Assembly: GCA_043805415.1 (NCBI GenBank)
Contig: JAZDHZ010000014.1
Coordinates: 10,393 to 74,392 of the forward strand
DNA from: Candidatus Omnitrophota bacterium
GTDB lineage: Bacteria > Omnitrophota > Gorgyraeia > B26-G9
Length of the DNA stretch: 64,000 nt
Reading direction: 5' to 3'
Positions within the stretch are counted from its first letter, which is position 1. The number at the start of each line of letters is the position of its first letter. A program made the position numbers and the translations under genes. Under the pieces are notes generated by a model that saw only the letters and a list, made by a program, of their open reading frames with translations, ran no database searches and was not told the origin of the DNA. Of the stretch, positions 25,960 through 40,532 are shown one piece after another.

Positions 25960-26667
25960 TCATCTACTTTTTTTAATTTTTGGCAAATCCCAAGCCGTTA
26001 TTATGCCAAGAAGTCCTTCATCTTTCTTACCGTTCTCAGTAATAAAAACAGCGCCTAATCTTCGTCCTTTTTCGATATAATCAAAGAACATTTCTTCGAT
26101 ATCATAGACATTTAAGTTTTTGCTAACAAAGCGGTATTCATTGTCTGCATCCTGTTGAATAAGCTCCTCTAACTCTCCAACTGTATTCTGCACTATGATA
26201 AATTCTTCTTCATCTTCTGGCACAAATGAAGCCACCCAGCAGGTAACCACCCTTTCTGAAAAAAGCCCTAAAAATTTGCCTTTTTTATAAACAGGCACGT
26301 GCGTATACAACTTCTCTTTCATTACTTTAATAACCGCACTTATTTTGACTGTAACCTCACAGGTATATACATTTTTTATGGCAATTGTTAAGACGGAAGG
26401 GGGTGAAACTAATCTAAGATATATGTCTTCAATCTTTTTGATTGCTTCCTCGGTTGGCACAATAAGAGGGACCCCATGGGATAATTTATTTCTTATATCC
26501 CCTAATTCTTTTAGCTCTTCTGCTTTTGCCCTAACCACCCTATTTTTTTTGCCTGCCGCTTCAACTACTTCATAAAACTTCATTCCCTTCATATTTGTCA
26601 ATCCCTGCAAATAATCCTCTACTTTCCCAAATATCTCTTTATATTTTTCGTTTAAATTTGAACTCAC
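25960..26667 (-). CDS. HEPN-like (R-x4-H, DUF4145-type) N-terminal domain fused to a CBS-domain pair
   Basis: Motif GDIRNKLSHG at residues about 57-66 (R-N-x3-H). Residues about 110-230 show two CBS-like units (HVPVYKKGKFLGLFS and LGIITAWDL). Confidence 0.5.
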   Translation of the reverse strand: MSSNLNEKYKEIFGKVEDYLQGLTNMKGMKFYEVVEAAGKKNRVVRAKAEELKELGDIRNKLSHGVPLIVPTEEAIKKIEDIYLRLVSPPSVLTIAIKNVYTCEVTVKISAVIKVMKEKLYTHVPVYKKGKFLGLFSERVVTCWVASFVPEDEEEFIIVQNTVGELEELIQQDADNEYRFVSKNLNVYDIEEMFFDYIEKGRRLGAVFITENGKKDEGLLGIITAWDLPKIKKSR

Positions 26668-26800
26668 CCTTTCCCCCCTTACCGTTTAATATAAATGCGA
26701 AAAACTCCTCGTTAATTTTTCCGCTCTTTGACTCTACATATCAATTAAACCTGCCCCTTTTTAATACTACAGGTCAAATTTTAAGCGCCAAGCTAGCCCA

Positions 26801-26950
26801 CTAACCATTTCCAATTGGATTCCAATTCTCCAATATCCCTACCACATAACTGTATTTTCTTTTCGGATTACCTATGTTCTTTTTAGCTATAACTGCAAAT
26901 GCCTCTTTGATTTTCCTTGAGCCATATTGTTTTGTTTTTTTTGCATGATT
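26801..26950 (-). pseudogene. DnaD-like (DDBH2 YxxxIxxxW) C-terminal gene fragment, copy A
   Basis: Minus-strand reading ...KQYGSRKIKEAFAVIAKKNIGNPKRKYSYVVGILENWNPIGNG-stop. No space for a full gene upstream. About 85-90 percent identical over about 115 bp to the copy at 32895-33020. Confidence 0.45.
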
Positions 26951-27113
26951 CAAACCTAATAATCTTTTTGCATGTTTGCATCAACGTCCCGTAATTCTCT
27001 AATTATTTCCTTTTAATTAAACTTTTTTAGCGATTTGCTTTCAAATTGCATCTGTATTATTAACAATACATTATGTCATTTGAAATTAAATTGGCCCTTA
27101 GTTTTCAGACAGG

Positions 27114-28523
27114 TCACGCCCAAATAGGAACATATTTAGCATATCTCCTGGAAACGTTATCAGGATCTTCAAATTTAATCATATTACGCGATAGAGCATC
27201 CTGAATTACGCGAGAAATAGCATCTGAATTTTTCTCTGACAAATTAAACCTTTCTCTCAAGCTTTTATTTGTCATTTTTTGATTCATAACATACTTCAAA
27301 CAACAATGCTGATAACACGCTCTCACCTTATCTTCTTTTGACATATCATTGAATTTTCTATGCGAAAAAAGAATTATTGATGTTCGGAGTTGTCCTACGC
27401 GAAAATCTGGTGCCGGTAACTGTAATAATTCTGCAGAATTAACAACTCTATCAATACCACTACCAAGCTCCTCGCAAATTCCTAATCGCCTCATTACATC
27501 AGCCAATTTTTCATTTCGAGACTTATATTCGTCTATGAAACGATCTGGGGTTATAACAGGTCTCCCGGGATTAGAGATCTCTATTCTGTCGGAATAAAGT
27601 TCAATCATCACTGAAGCTCCTTTTTCTTTAAAGTCTTGATGAATCAATGCATTTGCAAGTAACTCCCTAATAGCAATTTTAGGAAACATTTTTATTGTCT
27701 TACGGATTGCCTTTTCTATTACTTCATTTGTAGGTATTTGAGCATCAATAAAATCTACTAAATTCTGAAAGCCTACAGCGTAACCTTTAGCTCCTTGTTG
27801 AAATAGTTTTGTTTTATTTTTACCAGTATCCTCATAAACAACTAACCGTACCGCTTTACGCTCTAAACCAGAAAATTCTTTTAAATTTTTAGCAAATAAT
27901 ATCGCCCCCAAATTAGTAATGTCGTATACATCGCCATGTTTAACAATAAAACCTTCTCGAGAAAATTTATCCAGCACTCCCTCTCTATTTTCAGGATAAG
28001 GACGTCCCGATAAATCAAAGTAACTTTGTGTATCAAGCAATCGAATAATTTCTGGCGAATCAACATTTTCTTTTGCAATAAGACATAAAAACTCAGGACT
28101 TCCTTCTGCAAAAATTTTCTTTAGTTGTTCTGGTGACATCGGAGCTAAAGTATCACCTGCCCGCATAAGATATTTACCTTCATATTGAATAGGTTGCCCT
28201 TGAGGTCGTGAAGGCACGAAAAACACTAACACTCGACCATTTTCATGTGTTAATTCTTTATAGTCAACCTTAAAATGCAATCTTTCATATATTCCTGCTA
28301 CTGTTTTGGATGGTGTCTGAAAAGCCGCTGTCCCAACAACAATTCTAGGAAGGCTATCTGTGACTCCTAATACTATATGTCCGCCGCATTCGTTTGCCAA
28401 GGCAACACAATATTCAATAAGTTTGTCGAATTGAAAGCTACTTTTTGCTTCTTTAAATTCTAAATGTTCAGTTTCAGAAGGGGCTATCAGCCATCCGCTC
28501 AAGTCTTTCAAAGTAATATCCAT
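27114..28523 (-). CDS. AlbA_2 (Schlafen-like divergent AAA) + HATPase_c_4 domain protein
   Basis: N-terminal pattern EFKEAKSSFQFDKLIEYCVALANECGGHIVLGV typical of AlbA_2 'putative DNA-binding' domain; C-terminal region with HATPase-like motifs (NALIHQD, ISNPG). Confidence 0.65.
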   Translation of the reverse strand: MDITLKDLSGWLIAPSETEHLEFKEAKSSFQFDKLIEYCVALANECGGHIVLGVTDSLPRIVVGTAAFQTPSKTVAGIYERLHFKVDYKELTHENGRVLVFFVPSRPQGQPIQYEGKYLMRAGDTLAPMSPEQLKKIFAEGSPEFLCLIAKENVDSPEIIRLLDTQSYFDLSGRPYPENREGVLDKFSREGFIVKHGDVYDITNLGAILFAKNLKEFSGLERKAVRLVVYEDTGKNKTKLFQQGAKGYAVGFQNLVDFIDAQIPTNEVIEKAIRKTIKMFPKIAIRELLANALIHQDFKEKGASVMIELYSDRIEISNPGRPVITPDRFIDEYKSRNEKLADVMRRLGICEELGSGIDRVVNSAELLQLPAPDFRVGQLRTSIILFSHRKFNDMSKEDKVRACYQHCCLKYVMNQKMTNKSLRERFNLSEKNSDAISRVIQDALSRNMIKFEDPDNVSRRYAKYVPIWA

Positions 28524-28872
28524 TGTAATTCCTTCCTCTTTATCTATTATATTGTATCTTGTTTTTTACGCAATCTATACGTACGTTGCTTTAAACGAAA
28601 ATACTCCCGTCCCTTTTCTGTCTTTTGCCAGTTAAGCATGCGTTCTTTTTTCCGTTGATTAATTTCTTCTTCACTAAGTTCTTTCTTAAACTGTCCAGTC
28701 TACATATATCTTTTCATCTTACTATCCTCTTATGCTATATATTGTTATAATACTGCAAAAATTGTTACTACTCAATGGGTTTAAAATCTGGGGGATATAT
28801 ATACCAGGTGAATAATATTATTGGCGGGACAAAACCTAAAGGTGCTTTTTAAGGATTAAGCGGAATAGGTTT

Positions 28873-29679
28873 TTATATAAATCCGGGGAATTTTCGCTTA
28901 AATTCTTTTTTCATTAAATGAAAGGCTATATCTAATATTTCTTTTCTCTCTTTTCTTGCTTCAGCAACTATCTTAGATCTTAACTTCCCATGGCGAACTT
29001 CAGTCGCAACTTCTGTCAATGGCTTCATAAACGCTGTATTTGTTTTTAAAGCTACATGCATCTCACTCCAATGCTTTTCCTTAGTTATTCCTTTCTCTGA
29101 ATTTATAGCTTCTCTAATATCCTCAAGAATCCTGTAGGCAAAGAAGAACGCATTATCTCCTGGATCATTGATGCAATTGTAGTAATCTTTAAGCATTATT
29201 TTATGAAAAAAGCTCGAATTTATCACCGGGAAAAACTTTGCTACTTTCCGCCAAGTTACATTTGGTAAAGCATCTTTATTGGGCGTATACATTTTTCCGG
29301 CATAATCTAGCGTCCAAATTAAATTATGCTCAGCTTTTGTATTCATTGCCTCTATGCAACGGTTTACCGTAAACGAAAGTTTATTGTAATTATTCTCATA
29401 AACAATATTCTCTCTGAAAATAAAAGATGTGATGAGTGTATGAAAAGCTTCATAAACAAAAGGAGCAACTTTTACATATCCATCCTCTAAAGAAGGATTC
29501 CAAATAGAGATCCCATTGAAAAAGATGTCTAGTCTGTATCCGCCTCCTAAATCGAGTTCACCTGGATTAAATTTGTAGCAATAATCTGGAGGATTTAATG
29601 TCGCAGTAAAATAATATGTTTTATTTCCGGATATTTCCATGTTTTTATTGTACAACTCCTTACTTAATAACAATACCAT
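28873..29679 (-). CDS. Hypothetical protein (268 aa)
   Basis: Long ORF, no recognised motif; downstream of a small membrane protein gene on same strand. Confidence 0.4.
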   Translation of the reverse strand: MVLLLSKELYNKNMEISGNKTYYFTATLNPPDYCYKFNPGELDLGGGYRLDIFFNGISIWNPSLEDGYVKVAPFVYEAFHTLITSFIFRENIVYENNYNKLSFTVNRCIEAMNTKAEHNLIWTLDYAGKMYTPNKDALPNVTWRKVAKFFPVINSSFFHKIMLKDYYNCINDPGDNAFFFAYRILEDIREAINSEKGITKEKHWSEMHVALKTNTAFMKPLTEVATEVRHGKLRSKIVAEARKERKEILDIAFHLMKKEFKRKFPGFI

Positions 29680-29775
29680 AAAAACCGTTACTAAACAACG
29701 GATTCAAAAATCGGACTGGTTATAGAGGTAAGGTGGTTACCTTGCCGGGCAAGCGGTTATTTCTGTCCCCACACC

Positions 29776-30168
29776 CTATCCACATAAATTCATCATGAAG
29801 ATTGCAAATGCTATAATGTACGCAAGTAAGGTGACTGAATCAGCAACAACATCAATCCAAAACTTCTGTATTATTTCATTTGACCAAATATAACAACTTG
29901 TTGGCTGTAATTGTTCATCTGCTCTTCCAGCATAGACATTCCAGTGAACAATTTTATTTAAAAATGTCAATAGCACCTGAGTACTTATCGCAATCGCAAT
30001 TGCTCCAACAAATAATTGCTTATCTACTAAGCTGTTGAAAAACTCTTTCCCCCCTACAACTAACGCAAGGGCACCTATACCATAAGCAACAAACCAGTTT
30101 CTCAGTACTGAAGCATGTTTCCAATATTGATCAAAATACTCTTGAGCCGAACTATTATGATTCCCCAT
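29776..30168 (-). CDS. Hypothetical small membrane protein (130 aa, 3 TM)
   Basis: Hydrophobic segments VAYGIGALALVVGG, VGAIAIAISTQVLLTFL, LLAYIIAFAIFMM. Confidence 0.4.
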   Translation of the reverse strand: MGNHNSSAQEYFDQYWKHASVLRNWFVAYGIGALALVVGGKEFFNSLVDKQLFVGAIAIAISTQVLLTFLNKIVHWNVYAGRADEQLQPTSCYIWSNEIIQKFWIDVVADSVTLLAYIIAFAIFMMNLCG

Positions 30169-30418
30169 GATCTTGCTCCTTCTTAGATTGTGTGCGATTA
30201 AAGAACTAAAAAGCTAACGGCAGAGCTCGGCTTCGTCGTGCCCGCATCCTCGCTTTATATAGCTCGCGTGCTAACGCACTCAGAAAGCCAGAACAGCCGC
30301 AATGCCCAAAGACATTCGCCTTTGGCGAAAGACTTTCGTCCGCTTTCGCGGATTCGTATTGCTTGATAAACAGTAAAAGGTTATTAGAAACCAAACGGAA
30401 TAACCTCAAATTAATGGA

Positions 30419-31309
30419 TTACATAGTTCTATATACATCTTCTTCACACAACTTAAATTTCCCAAAGTAATCCAATAATCTTAAAAAATATTCCCTGAAT
30501 AAATTTTGACAAGAAACATATTTTTGAAATCTATCATCAAAGCTTAAACGAGATACCCCGGAGTGAATTATTTCGTTTCTTAAATCTATAATATCTGTTA
30601 ATGATGGATTCATCCCCACATTTCCAAACATTTCGGTAAGTAAGGTTTTAAAGCCTTTGTGCTGTGGCCTGCCACTTCGCCTTCTCATCATCGCCAACGT
30701 CGTTCCTGAAGGATAAAAATTATTATTAAAAATAGGATATCCGATATGACATGCATATGTATGCTTTAAATTTTCCAATAAAACAAACATAAACACAAGG
30801 CGAGCCTCTATAGGAAGATTTGGTTTTTGACTCAAAACATAATAATCTAAAATTACGTTCAATTGCCTGGATTGCCGCAACTTTCTATAATTAGGCCAAG
30901 CTTTTTCAAGATATAGCTTAGTTGCTTTTCCATGTATTTCTATAATTTTCCAAGATGTTTGGACAATTCCATTTCCAGATAGCCATTTTTCCTTTTCCCC
31001 ATAGATCTCTTTGTGACAATATACTTCTGAACAAGTAATAAACGATAAAAGCTCTGCGATATCACGAATTAAATCTCTTACAGTATCAACTTGAGACCTC
31101 GGAACATCTTTAATTGTAAGATCTGTTGTGAAATGTGTTTCTCCTTCAAAAATTTTTCCACGAGATGTACTATATCCTTCTTTTTGTCGCAATTCGACAA
31201 CAAAACCATCCAAATTAGCGGAAATAAAATTCTGAAAGTGCCAGCCCGGCCCTATTTTCTCAGTGCCAATTAAAAGACAATTCGCAAGAGTTCCAATGAA
31301 ATCTGTCAT
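30419..31309 (-). CDS. Hypothetical protein with C-terminal HEPN-like R-x4-H motif (DUF4145-type)
   Basis: Motif IIDLRNEIIHSG near the C-terminus; 43 bp downstream of the PD-(D/E)xK-like gene, probably co-transcribed. Confidence 0.45.
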   Translation of the reverse strand: MTDFIGTLANCLLIGTEKIGPGWHFQNFISANLDGFVVELRQKEGYSTSRGKIFEGETHFTTDLTIKDVPRSQVDTVRDLIRDIAELLSFITCSEVYCHKEIYGEKEKWLSGNGIVQTSWKIIEIHGKATKLYLEKAWPNYRKLRQSRQLNVILDYYVLSQKPNLPIEARLVFMFVLLENLKHTYACHIGYPIFNNNFYPSGTTLAMMRRRSGRPQHKGFKTLLTEMFGNVGMNPSLTDIIDLRNEIIHSGVSRLSFDDRFQKYVSCQNLFREYFLRLLDYFGKFKLCEEDVYRTM

Positions 31310-31352
31310 AACAACCCAATATTATATGCGTTGTAAAACCTAAAATTAGTAA

Positions 31353-32894
31353 TCAAAAATCCTCTGACAATGCTTTTCTTTCCATATCAAAACAGCGATA
31401 AACCACAGGGATTGAAAAATTCTCCCTAATATATTTCATGTAACTTTTTGTATCATCGTCAGGGAAAGAATCTCCAATAATAATTAGCTTTTTAGCCCTC
31501 TCAATATCTGGCCAATAAGCATACTCCATGATTTGTCCCAACGCTTGTCTTATGCAAAGTTTTGGCATCTCAGTTTTTATCTCGAAATAATGCCATTCGT
31601 TTTCAAGTGTCCTAGCCTTTATATCGATTCTCCCCTTTTCTTCTTGGACATTAACATACTCATGCTTATATTGTTCTCTTAGAAGCAAAGTAAGGGCATT
31701 TTGCATCTTGCTGTGATATGGATCGTATTCAACTTCTTTTTTAAATACAACTATTCTTTTTTTTTCACTTCTCTTCTTTCCCTCGTCTTCATCGTCAAAA
31801 CCTTCTTTCAGAAGAAAATTTGTCTTTTTAGGAATCAGCTTGAACCTGCTTGTTGTTATATTAATATCCTCATCTGAAATCTCAATCAACTCGTCAAATT
31901 GTTTCACGTTATCAAATCTAAATTTTATATTAAAAATTAATTCTGGAGAATTAAAATTTTCTTGAAAAAGAACGGGATTACCGCCAACATTTTTTATATC
32001 AGCAATTAGCTCTTCTATCCAGCCTTTTGTTTTATACATTTTATAGACTATAGTTGCTTCTTCGGAGGAAAGGCAACTAATTTCCTTTATGTCTCCAACA
32101 TAAAATCTCTTCTTTGCGCCGCTGATTGTATACAACGCAACATTATAAATATTACCCACATGTTTTCCTGATTCTACCCTGAAAGGCTCGAGAAATGCAT
32201 AATGAAATCCATCAAGAATACGAGACTTGTCTAAAAGCCATTCCTCATGCCCATATCCATATTGTGCCTCGTAAGAGTTTGAATCAGAACTCTTCCCTTT
32301 TGCTCCTGAAGGAAATTTCCACCCCTCTGTATTCCAGCAAATCCTTGCTACTTTATTAGTAGTCCCAAATTCCTGCTGCTCTTTTCTTAGTTGTATGATT
32401 TTTTCAACATATTTTTTATAAAAATGAGAATCAAGGAAAGCGATGCCTTTAGGTTTATATTCCTCAATCATAGAATCAATAACAGGCTTTACATTGTTTA
32501 AAAAATCTTTAAGGTTTGCTAAATAATGATTGCCGTCATAATTTCTATGCCACTTATTTTTATTACCCTGTTTTTGAAATCCACCAAGCCTTTCTGCAAC
32601 CTTACGCAAAAACTTTGCCTTCTCTTGAGAATCTTGACCTGATATTTCAATATAAGAATTACCTTTTTCATCAACTACAAATCCTATATTATGTATCTTC
32701 TCCTTCCAGTCTCCGCCATCCCAAAACGATACTTGCAAATATTTATCATTACCAATAAACCAATATCTTTCTTCGAATCGTTTCTTATTATTAATTTTTC
32801 TTGGAACAAAGAAAAAATTATTATCTTTTTCATGCAACTCGACTAGGAAGTCAAATATTTTTTCATGTTTTAAAACCGTGCTTCTACTGCCCAT
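31353..32894 (-). CDS. Hypothetical protein with C-terminal PD-(D/E)xK nuclease-like motif
   Basis: C-terminal GRIDIKART...WHYFEIKT fits the D...(D/E)xK restriction-endonuclease-fold pattern; N-terminal 350 aa unassigned. Confidence 0.45.
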   Translation of the reverse strand: MGSRSTVLKHEKIFDFLVELHEKDNNFFFVPRKINNKKRFEERYWFIGNDKYLQVSFWDGGDWKEKIHNIGFVVDEKGNSYIEISGQDSQEKAKFLRKVAERLGGFQKQGNKNKWHRNYDGNHYLANLKDFLNNVKPVIDSMIEEYKPKGIAFLDSHFYKKYVEKIIQLRKEQQEFGTTNKVARICWNTEGWKFPSGAKGKSSDSNSYEAQYGYGHEEWLLDKSRILDGFHYAFLEPFRVESGKHVGNIYNVALYTISGAKKRFYVGDIKEISCLSSEEATIVYKMYKTKGWIEELIADIKNVGGNPVLFQENFNSPELIFNIKFRFDNVKQFDELIEISDEDINITTSRFKLIPKKTNFLLKEGFDDEDEGKKRSEKKRIVVFKKEVEYDPYHSKMQNALTLLLREQYKHEYVNVQEEKGRIDIKARTLENEWHYFEIKTEMPKLCIRQALGQIMEYAYWPDIERAKKLIIIGDSFPDDDTKSYMKYIRENFSIPVVYRCFDMERKALSEDF

Positions 32895-33020
32895 ACAGGC
32901 CTACTTTCTCCAATATCCCCACCACATAACTATATTTCCGCTTCGGATTGTCTATGTTCTTTTTGGCTACGATCGCAAACGCGTCTTTGATTTTCTTTGG
33001 GCCGTATTGCTTAGACTTTT
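32895..33020 (-). pseudogene. DnaD-like C-terminal gene fragment, copy B
   Basis: Minus-strand reading ...KQYGPKKIKDAFAIVAKKNIDNPKRKYSYVVGILE...; a direct repeat of copy A about 6.1 kb away. Confidence 0.45.
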
Positions 33021-33236
33021 AAATAATATCCTCTATTATTTGCGGATTGTATTCTTCAAATACTATTTAAGCGTATTTTCTTGCTGTTTTATATTCCTTT
33101 TCTCCATATTGCTCCGCTATCATCGCAAGTTCAAGATCTAATTTTTCAGGATCATATGTTTTTAGTACCTTGTACATCTTCGGACTTCTTTTGCTGTAAT
33201 CCTTTTTTGTTTCTTTTCGCAAAAACATTTATATTT

Positions 33237-33566
33237 TTAAACCTTGAAACAGTGATATCCTTTTAAGGCGTCCAAAGCTGCGTAAGCCCAGGAACGATGT
33301 AGTTGCGAAGAATGTCCGTTTCCATCATTTAATCCGGCAATAGCCTCTACCGACCAAATCAGATTACCAAACTTTTCAGACATATAAGCATTCCCCATAT
33401 CTTCTTGTTTAGCTTTTTGCTTTAGATCTTCAGACAATGTTTTAATTTCAGTACAAATTCTATAATTATCACAAGAAGAATCATGCAACATACTACCAAC
33501 TAGGCACCTCATATGTTCCAGCGTGCTTTTTATATCCATACTATCCTCCTTATAGGATGTCTCCAT
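33237..33566 (-). CDS. Hypothetical protein (109 aa)
   Basis: ORF only. Confidence 0.3.
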   Translation of the reverse strand: METSYKEDSMDIKSTLEHMRCLVGSMLHDSSCDNYRICTEIKTLSEDLKQKAKQEDMGNAYMSEKFGNLIWSVEAIAGLNDGNGHSSQLHRSWAYAALDALKGYHCFKV

Positions 33567-33670
33567 TCTATATCCCGATTGTGATTATCTTTTTGATTAC
33601 CCCTAAATTTCTAATATTCCTACATCTTTAAACGTGTCGATCGTGCTTTCCAATCAGTGTAATCATTCTT

Positions 33671-34720
33671 TCACCAACGAAAACCAGCACCCACAGTAAC
33701 AACTGCTTCATCTTTAGTCTTTAAAAACCTCAAAAACGATAATCCTTCTCCGTCTAATATCTTTCGGGAGAGTTGTAGCTGAGCGCTGATGTTTTTATTC
33801 TGATCGTTTTTTAATTCAAAACTTATACTATCTTTATCAGTCAGCTTTGCTTCCGCTCCAAACGTAATTGCCCGAATATTTCCATTTTCATATTCCACTT
33901 CAAATACCAAGCCGATATCTTTTTTAATTTTCCATTTACCGCAAAGCGTGATTATCTGCTCTTCCGGACTCTTAGCCAAACCAATGCCTAATTCATATTT
34001 AATGTATTTATCTTTAAACACAGCCGCGCTGGTTTTAAAACTAAACACAGAATCAGACTGCAAATCCAAAACATAAGACAATCTGCCTTTATCTTTAATA
34101 TCCCAATAACCTTGAAATGTTAGAATATGAATATTTTTCTCTTTACGGATAAGCTGAGCTTTTTCGTATTGATAAATAATCTGATGCTGTTTGTTTATTT
34201 CCCAAGTTCCTTTAAAAGTAAGAATATCATAGCTGCCTTTTTCTTTTTGAACTCTAAATGTCAGACGATTGGCTTTATCTGCCTGCCATGCGCCTTTAAG
34301 CTGGAGAATATAGATTGATTGCATATTGTCTTTAGTATGAGTAGTAAGGCTAAAAGCTAAGGAATTTTTGGAAGTATCGATAATTTCTCCCTGAAGCGTT
34401 AATTTATCGCCAAGGGTTTCCCTGCCCCATTTATTAAGCTCTAGACAGAGATTATGGTCCTTATCTAAAGTCCAAACGCCTTCGAGTTTTACTTGATGCG
34501 GGATTTCTGTTCCTTCCGGAGTGGGTGCTTTAATAAGGTAAGTGAGTGTATTATCTTCGTCGATTTTGAAGCGGCCATCAAGAACCTGTCTGAATCTGGA
34601 CAGTTCGCTTTTCTTACCGGATTTATCGATAATCAATCGATTATACGGATCAATTTCATAAGTAACTTTTGGGTTATCCTGGCGTTTTGCCATAACCATC
34701 CTGTTTTTTAAAATTGTCAA
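33671..34720 (-). CDS. Hypothetical protein with about five tandem 45-50-aa internal repeats (G-x-W-x-[LI]-[DN]-K-x-x-x-L pattern)
   Basis: Repeat units visible by eye: EGVWTLDKDHNLCLEL, KGAWQADKANRLTFRV, KGTWEINKQHQIIYQY, QGYWDIKDKGRLSYVL, CGKWKIKKDIGLVFEV. Confidence 0.45.
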   Translation of the reverse strand: MTILKNRMVMAKRQDNPKVTYEIDPYNRLIIDKSGKKSELSRFRQVLDGRFKIDEDNTLTYLIKAPTPEGTEIPHQVKLEGVWTLDKDHNLCLELNKWGRETLGDKLTLQGEIIDTSKNSLAFSLTTHTKDNMQSIYILQLKGAWQADKANRLTFRVQKEKGSYDILTFKGTWEINKQHQIIYQYEKAQLIRKEKNIHILTFQGYWDIKDKGRLSYVLDLQSDSVFSFKTSAAVFKDKYIKYELGIGLAKSPEEQIITLCGKWKIKKDIGLVFEVEYENGNIRAITFGAEAKLTDKDSISFELKNDQNKNISAQLQLSRKILDGEGLSFLRFLKTKDEAVVTVGAGFRW

Positions 34721-34839
34721 TTTTCTAAACGCTTAACGCTATGCGCTATTTTTAATGATCAACTTCGTAAAAAACTTTAAATCTTTAAGCTATGCCCCCC
34801 CTTACTTATATGCTCATAGGAATATTAGGTATTTTGTGA

Positions 34840-35802
34840 TTAATTTTTAACCAACGATACTGTGTCACCTTCAATAAGAATCATGTCCTGTCCAGTAGAG
34901 TCTTTACTATATAAAGATACACTACCAACTATTTCTTGGGAATCTGTTGTAAAAGTTATGTCCTCACCTATCACATAAGCATATCTTGTTAATCCAGAGT
35001 TATATAATCCATCTTTTCCCTTAGGATACTGAGAAAACTTTACATCGTTATATTTTGACTTTAAGATATTAACAAACGCTTTTTCAGCATCTGCTACAAT
35101 TTTCTCTTTAGGTAAAGCTGGTTCAGCTAAAATATCATTAAAATCATCATTATAATCAAAAATAGAAATATTTAACTGTTCAATCTTAAAAAAGAACAAT
35201 ATCATTTCATCTGTAATGCGAGACCGTTCCATTTTTGGATATTCGTTTGATAATATTCGAATTCTTTTGTCGTGTGGCTTTATAACTAAGCGTGTCAAAC
35301 TATCTTCTTTTTTTGAAATTCCAACATAATGCAAATGATACTTTGTTAAATCCCGGAAATTATCGAAGCCTTTAATCCCAGGATGCCCCCTCCATTTGTC
35401 AAATAAGAATTTTTCAGTAGTAAACCAATCGACTACTTTAGTTCTTTCTTGTGTCTCCGTATCATTTTCCCATACCCTGATAAGCTTTTCACCAAATTCA
35501 AATTCAAGATCTGTATTTTTAATCGAAACTCCGTGACATTTAAGGATCTCATTAAAATCTATTTCACCTATTGATTTAACATTCTGCGCATAAAAAGTAA
35601 AAGGTGCTTTTAATTTTGATTGAAAATTAGTGCAAATAATATCCTCGTCAATCTCATACTTTCCTTCTTGACGCTGAGCCACCATATATAGGTTACTCTC
35701 TTTCAGAAGTTTTTGCACTTCAGGATCATCTTTTATCCACTCTGCCTCTTGGTTAGATATTGGAGGATAAACAAGTTTTAAAATATTTAGTTGTGATTTC
35801 AT
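34840..35802 (-). CDS. Hypothetical protein (320 aa)
   Basis: ORF only; same strand and close spacing with the flanking genes. Confidence 0.4.
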   Translation of the reverse strand: MKSQLNILKLVYPPISNQEAEWIKDDPEVQKLLKESNLYMVAQRQEGKYEIDEDIICTNFQSKLKAPFTFYAQNVKSIGEIDFNEILKCHGVSIKNTDLEFEFGEKLIRVWENDTETQERTKVVDWFTTEKFLFDKWRGHPGIKGFDNFRDLTKYHLHYVGISKKEDSLTRLVIKPHDKRIRILSNEYPKMERSRITDEMILFFFKIEQLNISIFDYNDDFNDILAEPALPKEKIVADAEKAFVNILKSKYNDVKFSQYPKGKDGLYNSGLTRYAYVIGEDITFTTDSQEIVGSVSLYSKDSTGQDMILIEGDTVSLVKN

Positions 35803-35884
35803 ATTATTTTCCTCTTATAACATTTGAGCTCAGGCAGAGCAAACGCGTAGCGTTTGCGATTGCCTGTAGCGAATCGTTATGCTT

Positions 35885-37039
35885 TTATAATTTTCCAGAG
35901 CTAGCTTTATCTGCTAATATTATAAATGCTAATGCGTCCATTAGAATTAAAAACTTCAAGGCTAATTCACGACATTCAAAATTAGTGAAAATTCCATGAA
36001 GTATTCCATGTCTATTTACTTCGCTTCTAGGGTCAGTAATTTTACTTATGTTACTCCAAAAAGATCCATCTTTTAATTCTGATACAATTACATCTAATAT
36101 TTTTTTGGGATAAAGCAAAAGCTTTCGAGAAATCACTAACTCTTGTAATTTATCAATTTTCTTTTTATATTCCCATCCATCAATTGCATTACCGTATTTA
36201 GCATATAAATAATCTCTAATGATGCCTTCAAATTGTGGACAAATAATGTAAATCGAAGCAACATAATCTTCTTTTAAATAAGCTTGGATTGATTTTTCTA
36301 TATATGAAATTCGATTATTGAAAAAACTTGCCTCTTTCCAGAATGTAATTTTATTATTCCAATAGGTCTCATTGAACTTTTTTTGAATAGTGTCTGCGGG
36401 AGAATCTGTATTAGAATTGTGCATCTCAATAAAAACTTCTGGATAATAATCTGGAGAAGGGGGCCAATTACATTCTTTAAGCTTTTGCATTTTTTCAAAA
36501 GGTTTAATGTTTTTAACAAAATTTCTTTCATAAAGTAATTGTACAATTGGGTATTTGAATTTTAAATCTGCTGGTTTTTTTTCTGAAAAATCAGGGGCAT
36601 TAGGTGAAAAATCAAAAACGAGATGGGGAGTCAAAAAAACTCTATTTAAAAATGCATAAGCACAAGGAATACCATTACTATCAGGTGGAATAATGAATGA
36701 CACATCTGGATTGGGATCAAGCTCGCTTAATTTTAATGTGGTGCCTACCATGTCCTCTGTGAATTCTCCTTCTTTTAGCTTTAATCTATATTGAATATTT
36801 ACCTCTTCATTTAGTTCAACGATATTTTCAATGCTACCGTTTTCTTTTTTAACTTGGTATGCTCTAAAAGAGTTGATTTCTATTGGCAAGTCAGTTTTAG
36901 AAATTTTTTTTAATTCTATTCTCTTTTCAATCTCGGGAATAACGAAAAGGCGTATCATATCAGAAATCGGACGATATTCCATAATTAATGATCGTTGATA
37001 AATAGTAATATTTTCTTTATTTTGGGTATTATTATTCAT
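35885..37039 (-). CDS. Hypothetical protein with C-terminal HEPN-like R-x4-H motif
   Basis: Motif SEVNRHGILHGIF about 45 aa from the C-terminus, in a predicted helical region; N-terminal 250 aa unassigned. Confidence 0.45.
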   Translation of the reverse strand: MNNNTQNKENITIYQRSLIMEYRPISDMIRLFVIPEIEKRIELKKISKTDLPIEINSFRAYQVKKENGSIENIVELNEEVNIQYRLKLKEGEFTEDMVGTTLKLSELDPNPDVSFIIPPDSNGIPCAYAFLNRVFLTPHLVFDFSPNAPDFSEKKPADLKFKYPIVQLLYERNFVKNIKPFEKMQKLKECNWPPSPDYYPEVFIEMHNSNTDSPADTIQKKFNETYWNNKITFWKEASFFNNRISYIEKSIQAYLKEDYVASIYIICPQFEGIIRDYLYAKYGNAIDGWEYKKKIDKLQELVISRKLLLYPKKILDVIVSELKDGSFWSNISKITDPRSEVNRHGILHGIFTNFECRELALKFLILMDALAFIILADKASSGKL

Positions 37040-37513
37040 ATTTTATTAGCATAACATTTAATATAATACCAGTCTGTTTTTCAGTAATTCCCTATTGTTT
37101 TTCTCTTCAACTAACAAGTCTTTGCCTGGAAACATGTCGTATTTTCTGCTTAATATCATGATATTAGCCTAGTCATTAAAATCGGATTTTTCAATTTTAA
37201 GCTTTAAAATCATCTCTTTTTCAAACATATTCTCTTTAAAACGCAGGCACAGAAAGCTGATTGTCATTAATCTTGTCGATTATTTGTCTGATATTCATAA
37301 TGTCCTCTTCCTTTCACAAAAACACTCTATTCCTATAATGCATTGCCTCCTGTTCCAACTAATCAATACTTCAAACAACGTCCCTTTCATCCATTATAGC
37401 TAAGTAATCCATGATAGGAGTTAAAAAATATTCACTATCTATCTTTCCAAAACTTTTATGTATGTCCCCAATATTCCTCTCTAGGTTAAAAATACACTTT
37501 AGGGCTTTGTAAC

Positions 37514-40500
37514 TCAGTCTTTTCTCCCTTGCAGGAACTGTTTCTTAGCCTCATTCAGCGCCTTATCTCTAAGTTTCTGTAGGTCAATTGGGTTGATACG
37601 ACCATAATACAGTTGCCTCCGATCAAAAGCGCAATTGAATGCTGAAATTAACGAGGCAGGTAGTGTATTGCCTTCGTATCGCACTAGAAGTTCATATATC
37701 TTTACATAGCCCATTTCGAGAATAGAAATTCGATCAGTCTCGGTTATAAAAGCCTGCAGCAGACCAGCATAACCAGGAAGTCGCAGATCGGCATAGATAC
37801 AAAGTAAGAGTAGCTTTTTAAGGTCATTTGTCGTAGTTTCTAGAATGCTTTCTATCGTTTTCTGTAAAGAAGCTGAACCAACATTTTGAGATAGGAATAC
37901 TTCACCTCCAATCGTAACCATGTATGCACACAAAGACGTGAATTGATCATCCTTCATCCCTTCGGAAAAAAGAGTGATCAGTTCCATATTACATTGCAAA
38001 TGAAAATCTAGAATTCGATCCAGTAACGTCTTTTTAATTTCAGCTGATATATGCTCGAGATTTCGAAACACATTATAGAAGGTCTTAAGCGCCATTATAT
38101 TCCATGCGACCTTTTCAATCTTATTTTTGGGAGGAGTTATCTTCATCATCCCTCGTCCAAGAGTACGATGATTTTTTTGATCCTCTTCAAACCCCTCATC
38201 TGCCTTTTCATAATCTAATTTCGAATCGATAGCATCTTTCGTCATTTTGTCTTTTTGTGTGCTTTCATGTTTCGGAGACAACAAATGATGTATATACTTC
38301 TCAAGATCTAAAGACGTCACTTGATTTGCAGGGGCATATTCTTCCTCAAGACATCGCATCAGCTCTTTCACTAGACTTTCTTCATCTCGATGTCGACCTG
38401 CATAATAAGCAAGTGAATCCCCTAACCGTAAAGCCGTATGAAGTCCTTGTAGATGTTCTTTAAGATTTATTTCGCTTGCCTCAACAGCTTGAGCTAAGTA
38501 GTAATTAAAAAAAACAATGCATGAAAAAAACACTACGCCCTGCGAATCAGTAATAATAATTCCCGATTTCTCAAGATGCTGAACAAACTTAGTTGCATCC
38601 ACATCCAGCGCCTTGTCTGAAAAATAGGCCAAGATTTGTTGTTCATAATCTATACGCAATATTCCCAAACTCCCTAGTCGATAACAAGCAGCGGCTAATT
38701 TCATAAGCATAAGACGAAGATTATAAATTGAGTAGTTGCTCGCCGGATCTGATTTGTCTAAACTATTCTCCTCAAGTCGTTCAAGAAGTCGAACAAAAGA
38801 TATACTCGTAATTTTTCCTCCAAATTCTAAAAAAACACGCAAATATAGCGACACCAAAAATGGGGTAACTGGGAGATCGGATAACGAAAGGCTATCCCAA
38901 ATGAATTTAACAGCTACATCGGTGTCTATTGCCAAACCAGTTGCCTCAAGGTAGCGAGTTGCAAATTCCCGAAGCCTACTGGGTCCCCAATAACGAAGAC
39001 GCAAAAACTTTATGTCTCTTTTATCTTGCGCTGCGGCAAGCATATCAAAAAGAACTTCATTCTTGAGGCAAATAACAATGTGCGGAATTACCTCAATGCC
39101 TGCTAATATTTTAGACACAATATTTATATCTGTTACTGATATATGATCAACAATCAAAGTCAAATCAACTGATGCAATGTCTGATTCGTCTATGTTGCTT
39201 TTCTTAATGATTTTTCTCAGTAGATTTTCCGGAGACTCAGCATCTTTAATATCCTCATAATTCACATAAACCGCGAGCCGTTTAGAACCAATTTTGTTAA
39301 TTCTCTGTGCAAGTTCTTCCAAAAAAAGCGTCGATCCAGCATCGGGAGGCGCATAAATTATACAAGTATGATCCATGGCAAAGCTGTAGGGATCTCTTAT
39401 TGTATCACCCTTCTTACCTTTCTTCTCCCATAATATCTCTTGAATAGACGGAATAAGTAGAATGGGAGGGTCAATTTGCTGTGCATTCTTAAGACTCGCC
39501 CCCATCTTCAAGCTTAGCGCAGAGTTAGTCTCCGTAACCTTTCTTGACAATGCAAGGCTCGCTTGATCTGCAAATGCTGAACTAGGCAAAGTGTACTTAA
39601 ATTCACCTTCAGGGGCATGATTAACATTGTGATCATATCTTAATCCTCCTCGTATAAATACACGAAACTTCGCATGTAATATCCCTTTTAAAGGATCCTC
39701 TATAGAATAAATGTTATATCCATCATTTCGCCCCCCCGGCACACCAGCAAAAAATGATGGAGCCATTAACTCAAGACAACCTCCTGAAGGGGTTGTGCTA
39801 GAAAGTGAATTTGTTTCATGATTATGTCCAGTTAAAATAATATCAAATTTTGATCTTAGGTCTTGTTGTACAATTTCTTGTTCAGAAGGATGAAACCAAG
39901 TCAATGGATGATGTATCAAAGCTATCTTAAAATCACAACCCTTGATTTTTTCTGCGAGCTCGTTAACTTGAATTCGCGTAAGAAATATTCTATTTTTTGT
40001 ATTATCATCAAAACAAGCCCAAGCTGAATCAAAAGCTGCAACCCCAACTTTTATTTTGTCTATCTGTATAATATGAGCTCTATAGGAATTACCTCTGGAT
40101 TTGCTGTACAAAGAATGTAAAAACTCAATATATTGCGTTTGCTGCGGAAGAATCAAGTCTCTATCTTCAAAAAGAGTTTGAGCTGTTTCCGTGTTGCTAA
40201 GCCGTGTGGATGCCCCATCACAAACCAAACTTTTAATTAGACCTCTCGTAATGTCATGATTGCCAGGACATACCACAATATCGCATGGTTTTATTCCGAG
40301 TTCTTTAACAACCGGACTAAAAAACTCATTCTGTGCTATACCATACTCTTCTGCAAGGCCTGAAAATGCTATATCGCCAGAGATAAAGATTATATGTGGT
40401 TTAACCTGAAGCTTTCGCAAGTCCTTCAGTAAAGCATCGCGTCGAATCCTAAACTCCGTTATTTCCTCATTGCGACAATGAAGATCAGAAAGATGCAATA

Positions 40501-40516
40501 ATGTTAAATCCCTCAT
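37514..40516 (-). CDS. Large (1000 aa) protein: N-terminal calcineurin-like metallophosphoesterase domain + degenerate P-loop NTPase-like region + helical C-terminal domain
   Basis: MPE motifs in order: LHLSDLH (D-x-H), GDIAFSG (GD), GNHD, HHP, GHNH. The downstream segment IIYAPPDAGSTLF...LTLIVDH resembles a degraded Walker A/B pair, followed by about 500 aa of helical sequence. Confidence 0.55.
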   Translation of the reverse strand: MRDLTLLHLSDLHCRNEEITEFRIRRDALLKDLRKLQVKPHIIFISGDIAFSGLAEEYGIAQNEFFSPVVKELGIKPCDIVVCPGNHDITRGLIKSLVCDGASTRLSNTETAQTLFEDRDLILPQQTQYIEFLHSLYSKSRGNSYRAHIIQIDKIKVGVAAFDSAWACFDDNTKNRIFLTRIQVNELAEKIKGCDFKIALIHHPLTWFHPSEQEIVQQDLRSKFDIILTGHNHETNSLSSTTPSGGCLELMAPSFFAGVPGGRNDGYNIYSIEDPLKGILHAKFRVFIRGGLRYDHNVNHAPEGEFKYTLPSSAFADQASLALSRKVTETNSALSLKMGASLKNAQQIDPPILLIPSIQEILWEKKGKKGDTIRDPYSFAMDHTCIIYAPPDAGSTLFLEELAQRINKIGSKRLAVYVNYEDIKDAESPENLLRKIIKKSNIDESDIASVDLTLIVDHISVTDINIVSKILAGIEVIPHIVICLKNEVLFDMLAAAQDKRDIKFLRLRYWGPSRLREFATRYLEATGLAIDTDVAVKFIWDSLSLSDLPVTPFLVSLYLRVFLEFGGKITSISFVRLLERLEENSLDKSDPASNYSIYNLRLMLMKLAAACYRLGSLGILRIDYEQQILAYFSDKALDVDATKFVQHLEKSGIIITDSQGVVFFSCIVFFNYYLAQAVEASEINLKEHLQGLHTALRLGDSLAYYAGRHRDEESLVKELMRCLEEEYAPANQVTSLDLEKYIHHLLSPKHESTQKDKMTKDAIDSKLDYEKADEGFEEDQKNHRTLGRGMMKITPPKNKIEKVAWNIMALKTFYNVFRNLEHISAEIKKTLLDRILDFHLQCNMELITLFSEGMKDDQFTSLCAYMVTIGGEVFLSQNVGSASLQKTIESILETTTNDLKKLLLLCIYADLRLPGYAGLLQAFITETDRISILEMGYVKIYELLVRYEGNTLPASLISAFNCAFDRRQLYYGRINPIDLQKLRDKALNEAKKQFLQGRKD

Positions 40517-40532
40517 ATTTTCCCTCCCAGTT

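What the first reader, a model, noticed from the sequence alone, without database searches (positions are those of the whole stretch)
25960..26667. HEPN-type (R-N-x3-H) domain fused to a CBS-domain pair: candidate ligand-gated RNase
The 235-aa protein has GDIRNKLSHG in a helical N-terminal segment, an R-x4-6-H motif of HEPN/DUF4145-type domains. It is followed by two CBS-like units (HVPVYKKGKFLGLFS, LGIITAWDL). CBS pairs are adenosyl-ligand sensors (AMP/ATP, SAM, c-di-AMP), so the architecture suggests a nucleotide-regulated HEPN RNase sitting in a defense island. This is conceptually parallel to CARF/SAVED-HEPN effectors but with a different sensor. I do not recognise it as a named system. 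The motif call is by eye and HEPN motifs are short.
Basis: inference. Interest (0 to 1): 0.6.

Follow-up and report, generated by a model that had tools for sequence, protein, structure and literature searches.

The report
HEPN RNase fused to CBS sensor
This gene encodes a small protein that joins a predicted RNA-cutting (HEPN) domain to a nucleotide-sensing CBS pair and sits in a mobile defence island; a protein with the same two domains in the opposite order was recently shown to protect E. coli from phage, so this is a new variant of a known kind.

Summary
Window 25960-26667 (minus strand) encodes a 235-aa protein with two domains.

The gene lies at the edge of a low-GC island that carries a serine recombinase and several defence systems. 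No nucleotide cyclase or any other partner gene is conserved, so it is a stand-alone gene.

The idea is not new. HEPN-CBS fusions were predicted to be nucleotide-gated RNases in 2013. DS-11, an E. coli CBS-HEPN protein, was validated as anti-phage defence in 2026.

This protein is not a DS-11 homolog. Its domain order is reversed, and the HEPN domains align only over the catalytic motif. The adenine-stacking tyrosine of DS-11 (Y157) does align with Y121 here.

The family has at least 882 clusters and no specific annotation. Its members behave in two ways. Copies near the window protein travel with restriction-modification systems. Others are stable chromosomal genes in Enterococcus (EF1724), Bacillaceae, Collinsella and Saccharibacteria.

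Verdict: a real, predicted ligand-gated RNase and a new variant of a known kind. A defence role for this copy is likely but unproven.

The parts
25960..26667 (-). Complete CDS of the 235-aa HEPN-CBS protein (GTG start; stop codon at 25960-25962)
   Evidence: ORF list and sequence. Identical to a deposited Omnitrophota MAG protein. The start position agrees with the N-termini of homologs.
26668..26679 (-). Shine-Dalgarno-like purine run AGGGGGGAAAGG immediately 5' of the GTG start
   Evidence: Read directly from the sequence. Promoter-like hexamers lie at 26744-26715 and 26715-26688 on the minus strand, but they are not enriched over shuffles.
26398..26667 (-). HEPN domain (aa 1-90), a helical bundle with helices at aa 2-24, 31-47, 49-63 and 73-87
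26476..26493 (-). Predicted catalytic motif R59-N60-K-L-S-H64 (R-N-x3-H, an Rx4H HEPN motif)
   Evidence: Invariant in 35 of 35 homologs. The only invariant columns among 107 diverse members. Present in 146 of 147 representatives. Aligns with VRNAFSH of Cas13b HEPN2 and with R330/H335 of DS-11.
26224..26385 (-). CBS motif 1 (aa 95-148), including the Y121-T-H-V-P-V strand
   Evidence: Pfam CBS E 4.4e-9 over aa 95-139. Structure match to CBS pairs.
26305..26307 (-). Codon of Y121, the predicted adenine-stacking residue
   Evidence: Aromatic in 34 of 35 homologs. Aligned by hhalign with DS-11 Y157, whose alanine substitution abolished defence.
25972..26190 (-). CBS motif 2 (aa 160-232), which completes the Bateman module
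25987..26007 (-). G221-I-I-T224-A-W-D227, the canonical G-h-h-T-x-x-D ribose/phosphate-binding motif of a CBS ligand site
   Evidence: G221, T224, A225 and D227 are invariant in 35 homologs. D227 is conserved in at least 90% of 107 diverse members. It aligns with GIITTTD of DS-11. Assigning the motif to ligand binding rests on established CBS structural knowledge, so it is an inference.
25960..49944 (.). Context: a low-GC mobile defence island of about 24 kb, with the gene at its left edge
   Evidence: GC is 0.349 in the island and 0.357 in the gene, against 0.40 and 0.415 in the flanks. Cargo: Schlafen-AlbA_2/HATPase_c_4 (27114-28523), a PtuA-like ATPase (31353-32894), PDC-S60 (37514-40516), an AlwI REase with a D12 MTase (41685-45672) and Abi_2 (46438-47328). 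A large serine recombinase (48185-49909) abuts tRNA-Ser at 49853-49944.

Best explanation
The gene encodes a stand-alone, two-module enzyme: an N-terminal HEPN ribonuclease domain and a C-terminal Bateman module (CBS pair) that senses an adenosine-containing ligand.

Proposed mechanism (inferred):
1. The protein forms a homodimer, as both HEPN RNases and Bateman modules typically do.
2. The two R59-N60-x3-H64 motifs meet at the HEPN dimer interface and form one composite, metal-independent RNase site.
3. Each Bateman module holds a single canonical ligand pocket, built from Y121 of CBS1 and T224/D227 of CBS2.
4. Occupancy of that pocket shifts how the protomers sit against each other, and this switches the HEPN site between an off state and an on state.
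5. No dedicated cyclase accompanies the gene, so the ligand is most likely a general cellular nucleotide whose level changes on infection or stress, such as AMP/ADP/ATP, Ap4A or a SAM-type compound.
6. Once active, the RNase cuts cellular or phage RNA and stops growth or phage replication.

In this genome the gene is cargo of a recombinase-bearing defence island. Its most likely role here is a single-gene abortive-infection type defence, working like E. coli DS-11.

Shown here: the two folds, the invariance of the catalytic motif, the ligand-site motif, the lack of a partner gene, and the island context.
Inferred: dimerisation, RNase activity, ligand identity, the direction of the switch, and the defence role.
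For: - **Catalytic motif:** R-N-x3-H supplies the only invariant columns across 107 diverse members and is present in 146 of 147 representatives. This points to selection on catalysis.
- **Ligand site:** G221-h-h-T224-x-x-D227 is invariant in the close family, and Y121 is aromatic in 34 of 35. Y121 aligns with DS-11 Y157.
- **Functional precedent:** in DS-11, R330A, H335A and Y157A each abolish phage defence (PMC13092281).
- **Stand-alone gene:** no neighbour is conserved across clades, and no cyclase recurs.
- **Defence context of this copy:** a low-GC island with a serine recombinase, Abi_2, an AlwI R-M system, PDC-S60, a PtuA-like ATPase and a Schlafen-like gene.
- **Closest clade:** its members sit inside or beside Type I, Type III and SNF2/Eco57I R-M systems and GmrSD/PDDEXK genes. 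The clade is taxonomically mixed, which suggests horizontal transfer.
Against: - No biochemical or genetic data exist for any member of this family.
- No Pfam HEPN hit reaches its gathering threshold, so the HEPN call rests on fold plus motif.
- Dimerisation and ligand binding could not be modelled, because no multimer or ligand prediction was available and model coordinates are not exposed.
- PADLOC has no model that matches the protein.
- Many members are stably inherited core genes in housekeeping surroundings: Enterococcus EF1724 upstream of lspA-rluD-pyrR; Neobacillus, Cytobacillus, Collinsella and Saccharibacteria synteny. This is atypical of defence genes.
- EF1724 insertions lower fitness in broth, which is not expected for a silent abortive-infection toxin. 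Polarity on essential lspA could explain it.
- Only about a third of 15 diverse loci have R-M neighbours.
Confidence: 0.55

Rival explanations
1. It is a housekeeping or stress-response RNase rather than an immune gene. The CBS pair reads cellular energy charge or an alarmone-like nucleotide. The HEPN domain then trims or degrades specific cellular RNAs (tRNA, rRNA or mRNA) to adjust translation during starvation or stress. Its presence in a defence island would be incidental, or a secondary recruitment.
For: - EF1724 of E. faecalis is a family member. It is genus-core, present in 100% of strains and scored 'fitness important', and its stop codon overlaps the start of lspA, followed by rluD and pyrR.
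- Lineage-coherent clades with conserved synteny exist in Neobacillus/Priestia/Cytobacillus, Collinsella and Saccharibacteria, the last of which have very small genomes.
- Neighbours in many loci are EF-Tu/EF-G, ribosomal protein S7, tRNA synthetases and QueC.
- Anantharaman et al. 2013 proposed exactly this kind of signalling role for HEPN-CBS proteins.
Against: - This copy lies in a recombinase-bearing, low-GC, multi-system defence island.
- Its nearest relatives are embedded in R-M operons in unrelated phyla.
- The only tested protein with this domain pair, DS-11, is an anti-phage system.
- The EF1724 Tn-seq phenotype may be a polar effect on essential lspA.
Confidence: 0.27
2. It is an addiction (toxin-antitoxin-like) module that stabilises the mobile island. 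The HEPN domain is the toxin and the fused CBS pair acts as a cis-acting inhibitor, replacing the separate MNT antitoxin of HepT-type systems.
For: - Structurally, the nearest solved relatives of the N-terminal domain include HepT/HEPN toxins: 5yep, 8xdj and 7ae2, and 6m6w.
- The gene lies at the extreme edge of a mobile island.
- Members occur on a conjugative Rhodococcus plasmid and on Chlorohelix and Corynebacterium plasmids.
Against: - No MNT gene or other antitoxin is adjacent in any locus examined.
- The tyrosine of the HepT Rx4HxY motif, which MNT AMPylates, is absent: the sequence after H64 is G-V, and that position varies among homologs.
- Most members are chromosomal and syntenic rather than on mobile elements.
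Confidence: 0.08
3. The HEPN domain is non-catalytic. The protein would then be a nucleotide-binding regulator or adaptor, in line with the 'predicted transcriptional regulator' label some sources give it. Alternatively it works only as one subunit of a multi-gene system with the adjacent Schlafen-AlbA_2/HATPase_c_4 gene.
For: - Some JGI records name homologs 'predicted transcriptional regulator'.
- A few members carry N-terminal wHTH/HTH-like extensions.
- The founding HEPN structures (HI0074, TTHA0636) are among the top fold hits, and they are not known RNases.
- A Schlafen-like gene lies 446 bp upstream on the same strand.
Against: - Strict invariance of R, N and H, the only invariant columns in 107 diverse sequences, is the signature of catalytically active HEPN families.
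- The Schlafen-like neighbour and every other neighbour are not conserved among homologs.
- The 446-bp gap suggests a separate transcription unit.
Confidence: 0.07

Closest known systems
DS-11 (E. coli WP_000257686.1; DefensePredictor, Science 2026, PMC13092281)
   Same: A one-protein system built from a CBS pair and a HEPN domain with an R-N-x3-H motif. Neither needs a partner gene. The adenine-stacking tyrosine (Y157) aligns with Y121 here, and the second CBS carries the same G-I-I-T-x-x-D motif. The proposed logic is the same: an adenine-derivative ligand on the CBS pair gates the HEPN nuclease.
   Different: - The domain order is reversed. DS-11 has a ~130-aa N-terminal extension, then the CBS pair, then HEPN (365 aa). 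This protein is HEPN then CBS pair (235 aa).
- There is no full-length homology: BLASTP finds nothing.
- Profile-profile comparison aligns only the CBS pair (E 6e-4, probability 29%).
- The HEPN domains align over only 24 columns around the motif (E 0.19).
- DS-11's HEPN is SAV2148-like according to the authors' HHpred table. This one weakly matches RiboL-PSP and HepT-like models.
- No member of this family has been tested.
HEPN-CBS(-HD) fusions noted by Anantharaman et al. 2013 (alr3009; gi 118580987 of Pelobacter propionicus; PMC3710099)
   Same: [quoted passage not shown]
   Different: Those examples are listed with the SAV_2148-type assemblage, and some carry an HD domain. They are probably the DS-11-type lineage.
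CARF-HEPN and SAVED-type effectors (Csm6/Csx1 of type III CRISPR; CBASS effectors)
   Same: A ligand-sensing domain fused to a dimeric HEPN RNase, giving a ligand-activated, non-specific RNase. Csm6 and Csx1 appear among the fold hits of the N-terminal domain.
   Different: The sensor is a Bateman module, not a CARF or SAVED domain. No cyclase (Cas10 or CD-NTase) or CRISPR locus is associated in any locus examined. The ligand is therefore unlikely to be a dedicated cyclic oligonucleotide.
HepT-MNT (HEPN/MNT) toxin-antitoxin systems
   Same: A small HEPN RNase of about 90-130 aa with an Rx4H motif. HepT toxins are among the closest solved structures.
   Different: There is no MNT partner and no AMPylated tyrosine (Rx4HxY). 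Control is presumably in cis, by the fused CBS pair.
PrrC/RloC and RNase L/Ire1 (nucleotide-regulated HEPN/KEN RNases)
   Same: The concept of a HEPN-superfamily RNase held inactive and switched on by nucleotide binding to a fused regulatory domain (established knowledge; summarised in PMC3710099).
   Different: The regulatory domains differ: an ABC ATPase, or a pseudokinase with ankyrin repeats. Sizes and partners also differ (PrrC works with a Type Ic R-M system). No sequence relationship beyond the superfamily was detected.

Membership tests
HEPN superfamily | All-alpha up-and-down helical bundle of the HEPN fold | tested here: met
HEPN superfamily | Conserved Rx4-6H motif | tested here: met
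   R59-N-x3-H64 is invariant in 35 of 35 homologs and present in 146 of 147 representatives. These are the only invariant columns in 107 diverse members.
HEPN superfamily | Significant match to a curated HEPN sequence profile | tested here: inconclusive
   The best hit is HEPN_RiboL-PSP at 21.8 bits, E 2e-4, below the gathering score of 28.4. Scattered weak hits to six HEPN Pfam families occur across members. PDB profile hits have E 0.015-2.
HEPN superfamily | Metal-independent endoribonuclease activity from a dimeric composite site | not testable with these tools
   This needs biochemistry or a multimer model. No multimer prediction was available and coordinates are not exposed.
CBS pair (Bateman module) | Two tandem CBS motifs forming one module | tested here: met
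CBS pair (Bateman module) | Ribose/phosphate-binding motif G-h-h-(T/S)-x-x-(D/N) in the ligand cleft | tested here: met
   It is present and invariant in CBS2 as G221-I-I-T224-A-W-D227. CBS1 has G134-L-F-S137-E-R-V without the acidic residue, so probably one functional site per module (inference).
CBS pair (Bateman module) | Actual binding of an adenosine-containing ligand | not testable with these tools
   No ligand docking or binding assay is available.
DS-11 family (CBS-HEPN anti-phage protein) | Full-length sequence homology to WP_000257686.1 | tested here: not met
   BLASTP gives no significant alignment. hhalign of the two family profiles aligns only the CBS pair (E 6e-4, probability 29%).
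DS-11 family (CBS-HEPN anti-phage protein) | Architecture: N-terminal extension, then CBS pair, then C-terminal HEPN | tested here: not met
   Here HEPN is N-terminal (aa 1-90) and the CBS pair is C-terminal (aa 95-232), with no extension. In DS-11 the CBS pair is at 134-241 and HEPN at 287-362.
DS-11 family (CBS-HEPN anti-phage protein) | Same HEPN subfamily (SAV2148-like) | tested here: not met
   The HEPN profile compared with the DS-11 family profile aligns 24 columns at E 0.19. This protein's weak Pfam hits are RiboL-PSP and MAE_28990, not SAV2148.
DS-11 family (CBS-HEPN anti-phage protein) | Aromatic residue at the position of Y157 and catalytic R/H, all required for defence | tested here: met
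   Y121 aligns with Y157 and is aromatic in 34 of 35 homologs. R59/H64 correspond to R330/H335. Whether they are required for function was not tested.
DS-11 family (CBS-HEPN anti-phage protein) | Protection against phage | not testable with these tools
   This needs an experiment.
CARF/SAVED-HEPN second-messenger effectors | CARF or SAVED sensor domain and an associated nucleotide cyclase | tested here: not met
   The sensor is a CBS pair. The PADLOC CARF hit is noise (E 0.088). No cyclase recurs among neighbours in about 90 loci.
HepT-MNT toxin-antitoxin | Adjacent MNT nucleotidyltransferase antitoxin and an Rx4HxY motif | tested here: not met
   No conserved neighbour exists. The residue two positions after H64 is V here and varies among homologs.

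The most novel reading that the evidence does not exclude
HEPN(N)-CBS(C) proteins form a large, unnamed family of at least 882 clusters at 50% identity. The family arose independently of the DS-11 lineage, so the two would be convergent fusions of the same two domains.

Its ancestral role would be a general nucleotide-pool-gated RNA-decay switch. It is fixed as a core gene in Enterococcus (EF1724), Bacillaceae, Collinsella and the minimal-genome Saccharibacteria. One branch has been repeatedly captured by restriction-modification and defence islands, and moves between phyla as a single-gene immune effector.

If true, this links housekeeping metabolite sensing to abortive infection. It would also provide a tractable model, EF1724, for the signalling pathway proposed in 2013.
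Probability: 0.3. Interest if true: 0.65.

Novelty: new variant of a known kind. Interest (0 to 1): 0.5.

Why it matters
DS-11 showed that a CBS pair can gate a HEPN nuclease in phage defence, but its ligand and mechanism are unknown. This second family is unrelated at the sequence level and has the inverted domain order, yet it keeps the same catalytic and ligand-stacking residues. That suggests the design was invented, or rearranged, more than once. It also gives a smaller protein (235 aa) for structural and ligand-identification work.

The family is large and carries only the label 'CBS domain-containing protein'. It includes a core gene of Enterococcus faecalis, and there is one full-length tblastn hit in a Listeria-labelled record. 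Working out its ligand and RNA targets would therefore bear on immunity and on RNA turnover in clinically relevant Firmicutes. The split between island-borne and core-genome copies offers a natural test of how housekeeping sensors are recruited into defence.

Tried and rejected
- **Whole-protein fold search.** It returned only CBS pairs and said nothing about the N-terminal domain. I modelled a domain-only construct and searched it separately.
- **The search for related loci with the 35-sequence alignment.** It failed because no conserved stretch was found. I repeated it with a tighter 12-sequence alignment.
- **Conserved partner gene** (cyclase, antitoxin or R-M subunit). Neighbour clustering over about 88 loci gave only lineage-specific clusters. 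ORFs of similar size immediately upstream in R-M-linked loci are unrelated to each other and to the window's 268-aa ORF.
- **Homology to DS-11.** Rejected at full length and at the HEPN domain.
- **Phage-encoded origin.** The three 'phage' hits are UNVERIFIED_ORG records. The Enterococcus one is plainly host chromosome. There was no PHROG hit and no BFVD structure with this architecture.
- **Family-level models.** PADLOC and NCBIfam have none for this protein.
- **att-like repeat of tRNA-Ser or tRNA-Arg** to define the island ends. None was found at k=13.
- **afdb50 fold library.** It was not available.
- **Model coordinates.** They are not exposed, so the position of R59/H64 relative to the CBS module could not be examined.
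- **E. coli WP_001532511.1.** This is a 263-aa 'CBS domain-containing protein' that DefensePredictor also predicts as defensive. I could not determine whether it belongs to this family, because its sequence is not in the held supplements.
Full report
**1. The observation**

Window 25960-26667 on the minus strand holds a 235-aa ORF. It starts with GTG, directly preceded by the purine run AGGGGGGAAAGG. An identical protein is deposited as 'MAG: CBS domain-containing protein [Candidatus Omnitrophota bacterium]', which also identifies the source organism.

**2. The C-terminal half is a complete CBS pair**

Within CBS2, G221-I-I-T224-A-W-D227 fits the canonical G-h-h-T-x-x-D ribose/phosphate-binding motif of CBS ligand sites. 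It is invariant in 35 homologs. CBS1 has G-L-F-S-E-R-V, which lacks the acidic residue. I therefore infer one functional site per module.

**3. The N-terminal 90 residues are a HEPN domain**

Sequence profiles alone are suggestive but sub-threshold:
- HEPN_RiboL-PSP scores 19-22 bits against a cutoff of 28.4.
- A profile of the domain finds Cas13b HEPN2, HepT toxins and Csm6 in the PDB at E 0.015-2. The alignments run over the R-N-x3-H motif.

Two tests settled the question.

Second, the motif is conserved to an unusual degree:
- R59, N60 and H64 are invariant in 35 homologs.
- They are the only invariant columns in an alignment of 107 members that share 20-36% identity with the query.
- R-N-x3-H occurs in 146 of 147 representatives.
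- It occurs in 82 of 86 genomic copies, and the four exceptions are truncated fragments.

**4. The family**

A profile of the HEPN domain alone was searched against 1.84 billion cluster representatives. It finds 882 proteins at E<=1e-10 and 1673 at E<=1e-3. Nearly all of the top 150 are 230-250 aa with the domain at residues 1-95. CBS is detected in 105 of 107 full-length members. A few members carry N-terminal wHTH/HTH-like or coiled-coil extensions.

Sources call these proteins only 'CBS domain-containing protein' or 'predicted transcriptional regulator'. NCBIfam, PADLOC and PHROGs have no model for the family.

In named genomes the family occurs in many Patescibacteria/Saccharibacteria, Neobacillus, Cytobacillus, Priestia, Bacillus, Collinsella, Zixibacteria and Caldisericales, among others. 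It is also found on Rhodococcus, Corynebacterium and Chlorohelix plasmids.

**5. Context in the window**

GC falls from about 0.40 to 0.32-0.35 between roughly 26 and 48 kb. The gene (0.357) matches the island (0.349), not the flanks. The island carries:
- a Schlafen-AlbA_2/HATPase_c_4 gene;
- a 296-aa protein with a HEPN-like LRNEIIH motif next to a PtuA-like ATPase;
- PDC-S60 (metallophosphatase plus STAND);
- YfbU;
- an AlwI-type restriction enzyme with a D12 methylase;
- an Abi_2 gene;
- a large serine recombinase at the far end, abutting tRNA-Ser.

The HEPN-CBS gene sits at the opposite edge. It is separated by 446 bp from the upstream gene and by more than 500 bp from the next downstream gene on the same strand, so it is probably its own transcription unit. 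I found no att repeat.

**6. Context elsewhere**

Clustering the neighbours of about 88 loci gave only lineage-specific clusters. No gene accompanies the family across clades, and no cyclase recurs. Two patterns emerged.

*Travelling with restriction-modification systems.* The copies closest to the window protein lie inside or next to R-M and other defence genes:
- a Type I system (L092);
- GmrSD/Schlafen, RmuC, PDDEXK and HsdM (L093);
- SNF2 plus an Eco57I-type methylase (L094);
- a Type III system followed by a Hypoth_Ymh protein (L005-7);
- a methylase, PDDEXK, Mrr and NYN (L008/9).

The ORFs immediately upstream in these loci are unrelated to each other. In a rough neighbour-joining tree without support values, these copies and the window protein fall in one clade that mixes Omnitrophota, Zixibacteria, several CPR phyla and a Pseudomonadales MAG. 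That pattern fits horizontal transfer.

*Stable chromosomal genes.* Bacillaceae, Collinsella and Saccharibacteria form lineage-coherent clades with conserved synteny among ordinary genes: DD-carboxypeptidase, QueC, nitroreductase, acetate kinase/FUR/glutaredoxin.

The clearest case came from a mislabelled 'phage' record that is really E. faecalis chromosome. There the family member (234 aa, LRNAIVH) lies between fhs and lspA-rluD-pyrR-pyrP-pyrB, and its stop codon overlaps the lspA start. Gene lengths and products in the Tn-seq supplement identify it as EF1724: EF1723 is lspA at 485 bp, EF1724 is a 'CBS domain-containing protein' at 704 bp, and EF1725 is fhs at 1670 bp. EF1724 is a genus-core gene scored 'fitness important' (PMC7701990). 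Because lspA is essential and directly downstream, polarity is a serious caveat.

**7. Comparison with what is known**

HEPN domains fused to CBS domains, sometimes with an added HD domain, were reported by Anantharaman et al. 2013. They predicted that nucleotide sensing by the CBS domains regulates RNA stability (PMC3710099). Those fusions are tabulated alongside the SAV_2148 type.

DefensePredictor (PMC13092281) validated DS-11, a 365-aa E. coli protein with a CBS pair at residues 134-241 and a C-terminal SAV2148-like HEPN at 287-362. R330A, H335A and Y157A each abolished defence, and Y157 was predicted to contact the adenine of ATP.

I took the DS-11 sequence from the supplement and built a profile from 22 of its more than 3600 homolog clusters. 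The comparison showed:
- BLASTP finds nothing between the two proteins.
- Profile-profile comparison aligns only the CBS pair: 106 columns, E 6e-4, probability 29%.
- The HEPN domains align over just 24 columns around the motif, at E 0.19.
- The domain order is reversed.

So this protein is not a member of the DS-11 family. Within the CBS alignment, however, Y121 (aromatic in 34 of 35 homologs) sits at the position of DS-11 Y157, and GIITAWD matches GIITTTD. The two families appear to work alike without being the same family.

It is not a CARF/SAVED effector, because the sensor differs and no cyclase is associated. It is not a HepT-MNT toxin either, because there is no MNT partner and no Rx4HxY tyrosine.

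**8. Mechanism**

Shown here:
- a HEPN fold with a catalytic-type motif under the strongest constraint in the protein;
- a Bateman module with one canonical ligand site;
- no partner gene;
- island context for this copy.

Inferred from established knowledge of HEPN RNases and Bateman modules, and from DS-11:
- the protein dimerises;
- the two R-N-x3-H motifs form a composite RNase site;
- ligand occupancy of the Y121/T224/D227 pocket sets the geometry of the dimer and therefore its activity;
- the ligand is a general adenosine-containing metabolite whose level shifts on infection or stress, rather than a dedicated second messenger;
- RNA cleavage arrests growth or phage replication.

I put this at about 0.55 overall. 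Confidence is much higher, above 0.9, for the architecture alone. It is about 0.5 for a defence role of this particular copy.

The main rival, at about 0.27, is a housekeeping or stress RNase. The core-genome clades and EF1724 support it. The two explanations are not exclusive across the family.

**9. Verdict**

The concept, however, was predicted in 2013 and validated in 2026 in another family. What is new here:
- a distinct, large and unnamed family with the inverted domain order and a different HEPN subtype;
- a conserved ligand-stacking residue shared with DS-11;
- a clear split between R-M-associated mobile copies and core-genome copies, including EF1724.

I rate it a new variant of a known kind, with interest 0.5.

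Noticed in passing
L091:4968-5672 (+), from OR846607.1: E. faecalis EF1724, annotated only as 'CBS domain-containing protein', is a member of this HEPN-CBS family. It carries LRNAIVH, and its stop codon overlaps the start of essential lspA, followed by rluD and the pyr operon. A Tn-seq study scored it genus-core and 'fitness important', though polarity on lspA is possible.
   Followed up: yes
OR846607.1, OR849199.1, OR847038.1 (phage collection hits H1-H3): These three 'phage' records are flagged UNVERIFIED_ORG. The Enterococcus one is clearly host chromosome (aroD, fhs, lspA, rluD, pyrR, pyrP, pyrB), so it should not be counted as evidence of phage carriage.
   Followed up: partly
window 30419-31309 (-) and 31353-32894 (-): A 296-aa protein has a C-terminal HEPN-like motif (DLRNEIIHSG) and a weak HEPN_RiboL-PSP hit (E 0.004). 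It lies directly downstream of a PtuA-like AAA ATPase (PADLOC PtuA, E 7e-34). This could be a Septu-like pair with a HEPN effector in place of the usual HNH protein PtuB.
   Followed up: no
window 27114-28523 (-): A 469-aa Schlafen AlbA_2 + HATPase_c_4 protein lies immediately upstream of the target gene. It matches pAgo-associated PADLOC models and a PHROG 'DNA helicase' family. A GmrSD_N + SLFN_AlbA_2 protein also lies near a homolog in L093, but the pairing is not conserved in general.
   Followed up: partly
window 37514-40516 (-): A 1000-aa calcineurin-like metallophosphatase plus STAND NTPase matches the PADLOC candidate system PDC-S60 (E 4e-62).
   Followed up: no
window 41685-43949 (-) and 43930-45672 (-): An AlwI-type restriction endonuclease is fused to a C-terminal S24 (LexA-like) peptidase domain and is paired with a double D12-class methyltransferase. 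The S24 fusion is unusual for a restriction enzyme.
   Followed up: no
window 46438-47328 (-), 46160-46465 (-), 48185-49909 (+), 49853-49944 (-): The right end of the island holds an Abi_2 (AbiD/F-type HEPN) gene, a RadC N-terminal fragment, and a large serine recombinase whose 3' end overlaps tRNA-Ser. The low-GC stretch of about 26-48 kb is probably an integrated mobile defence island. No att repeat was found.
   Followed up: partly
window 25110-25385 (-) and 25376-25585 (+): A short GIY-YIG domain ORF and a 69-aa HTH (transposase-like) ORF lie just outside the island's left edge. They may be remnants of mobile-element activity.
   Followed up: no
L002, L018-L020, L023-L026, L028-L031, L033, L040, L043, L047, L086: In 17 loci, most of them Saccharibacteria and related Patescibacteria, the family gene is convergent with an unannotated gene of about 530-630 aa, and the two often overlap at their 3' ends. 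A gene in the same position in L003, which was not in the cluster, hits DUF3152. This may be simple synteny or a functional link.
   Followed up: partly
P0015, P0161, P0296, P0274 (family members): A few family members carry N-terminal extensions of 70-130 aa that look like winged-helix/HTH or coiled-coil domains. This is reminiscent of the N-terminal extension of DS-11.
   Followed up: no
PDB hits 9znf_4/9znf_5, 9zni_6/9zni_7, 9e7f_3: Several of the closer solved CBS-pair relatives are archaeal ribosome-bound CBS proteins (SriA-D complexes on 70S ribosomes). This raises the untested idea that the CBS module could also target the RNase to ribosomes.
   Followed up: no
DefensePredictor Table S10: A second E. 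coli 'CBS domain-containing protein', WP_001532511.1 (263 aa), is predicted as a novel defence gene.
   Followed up: partly
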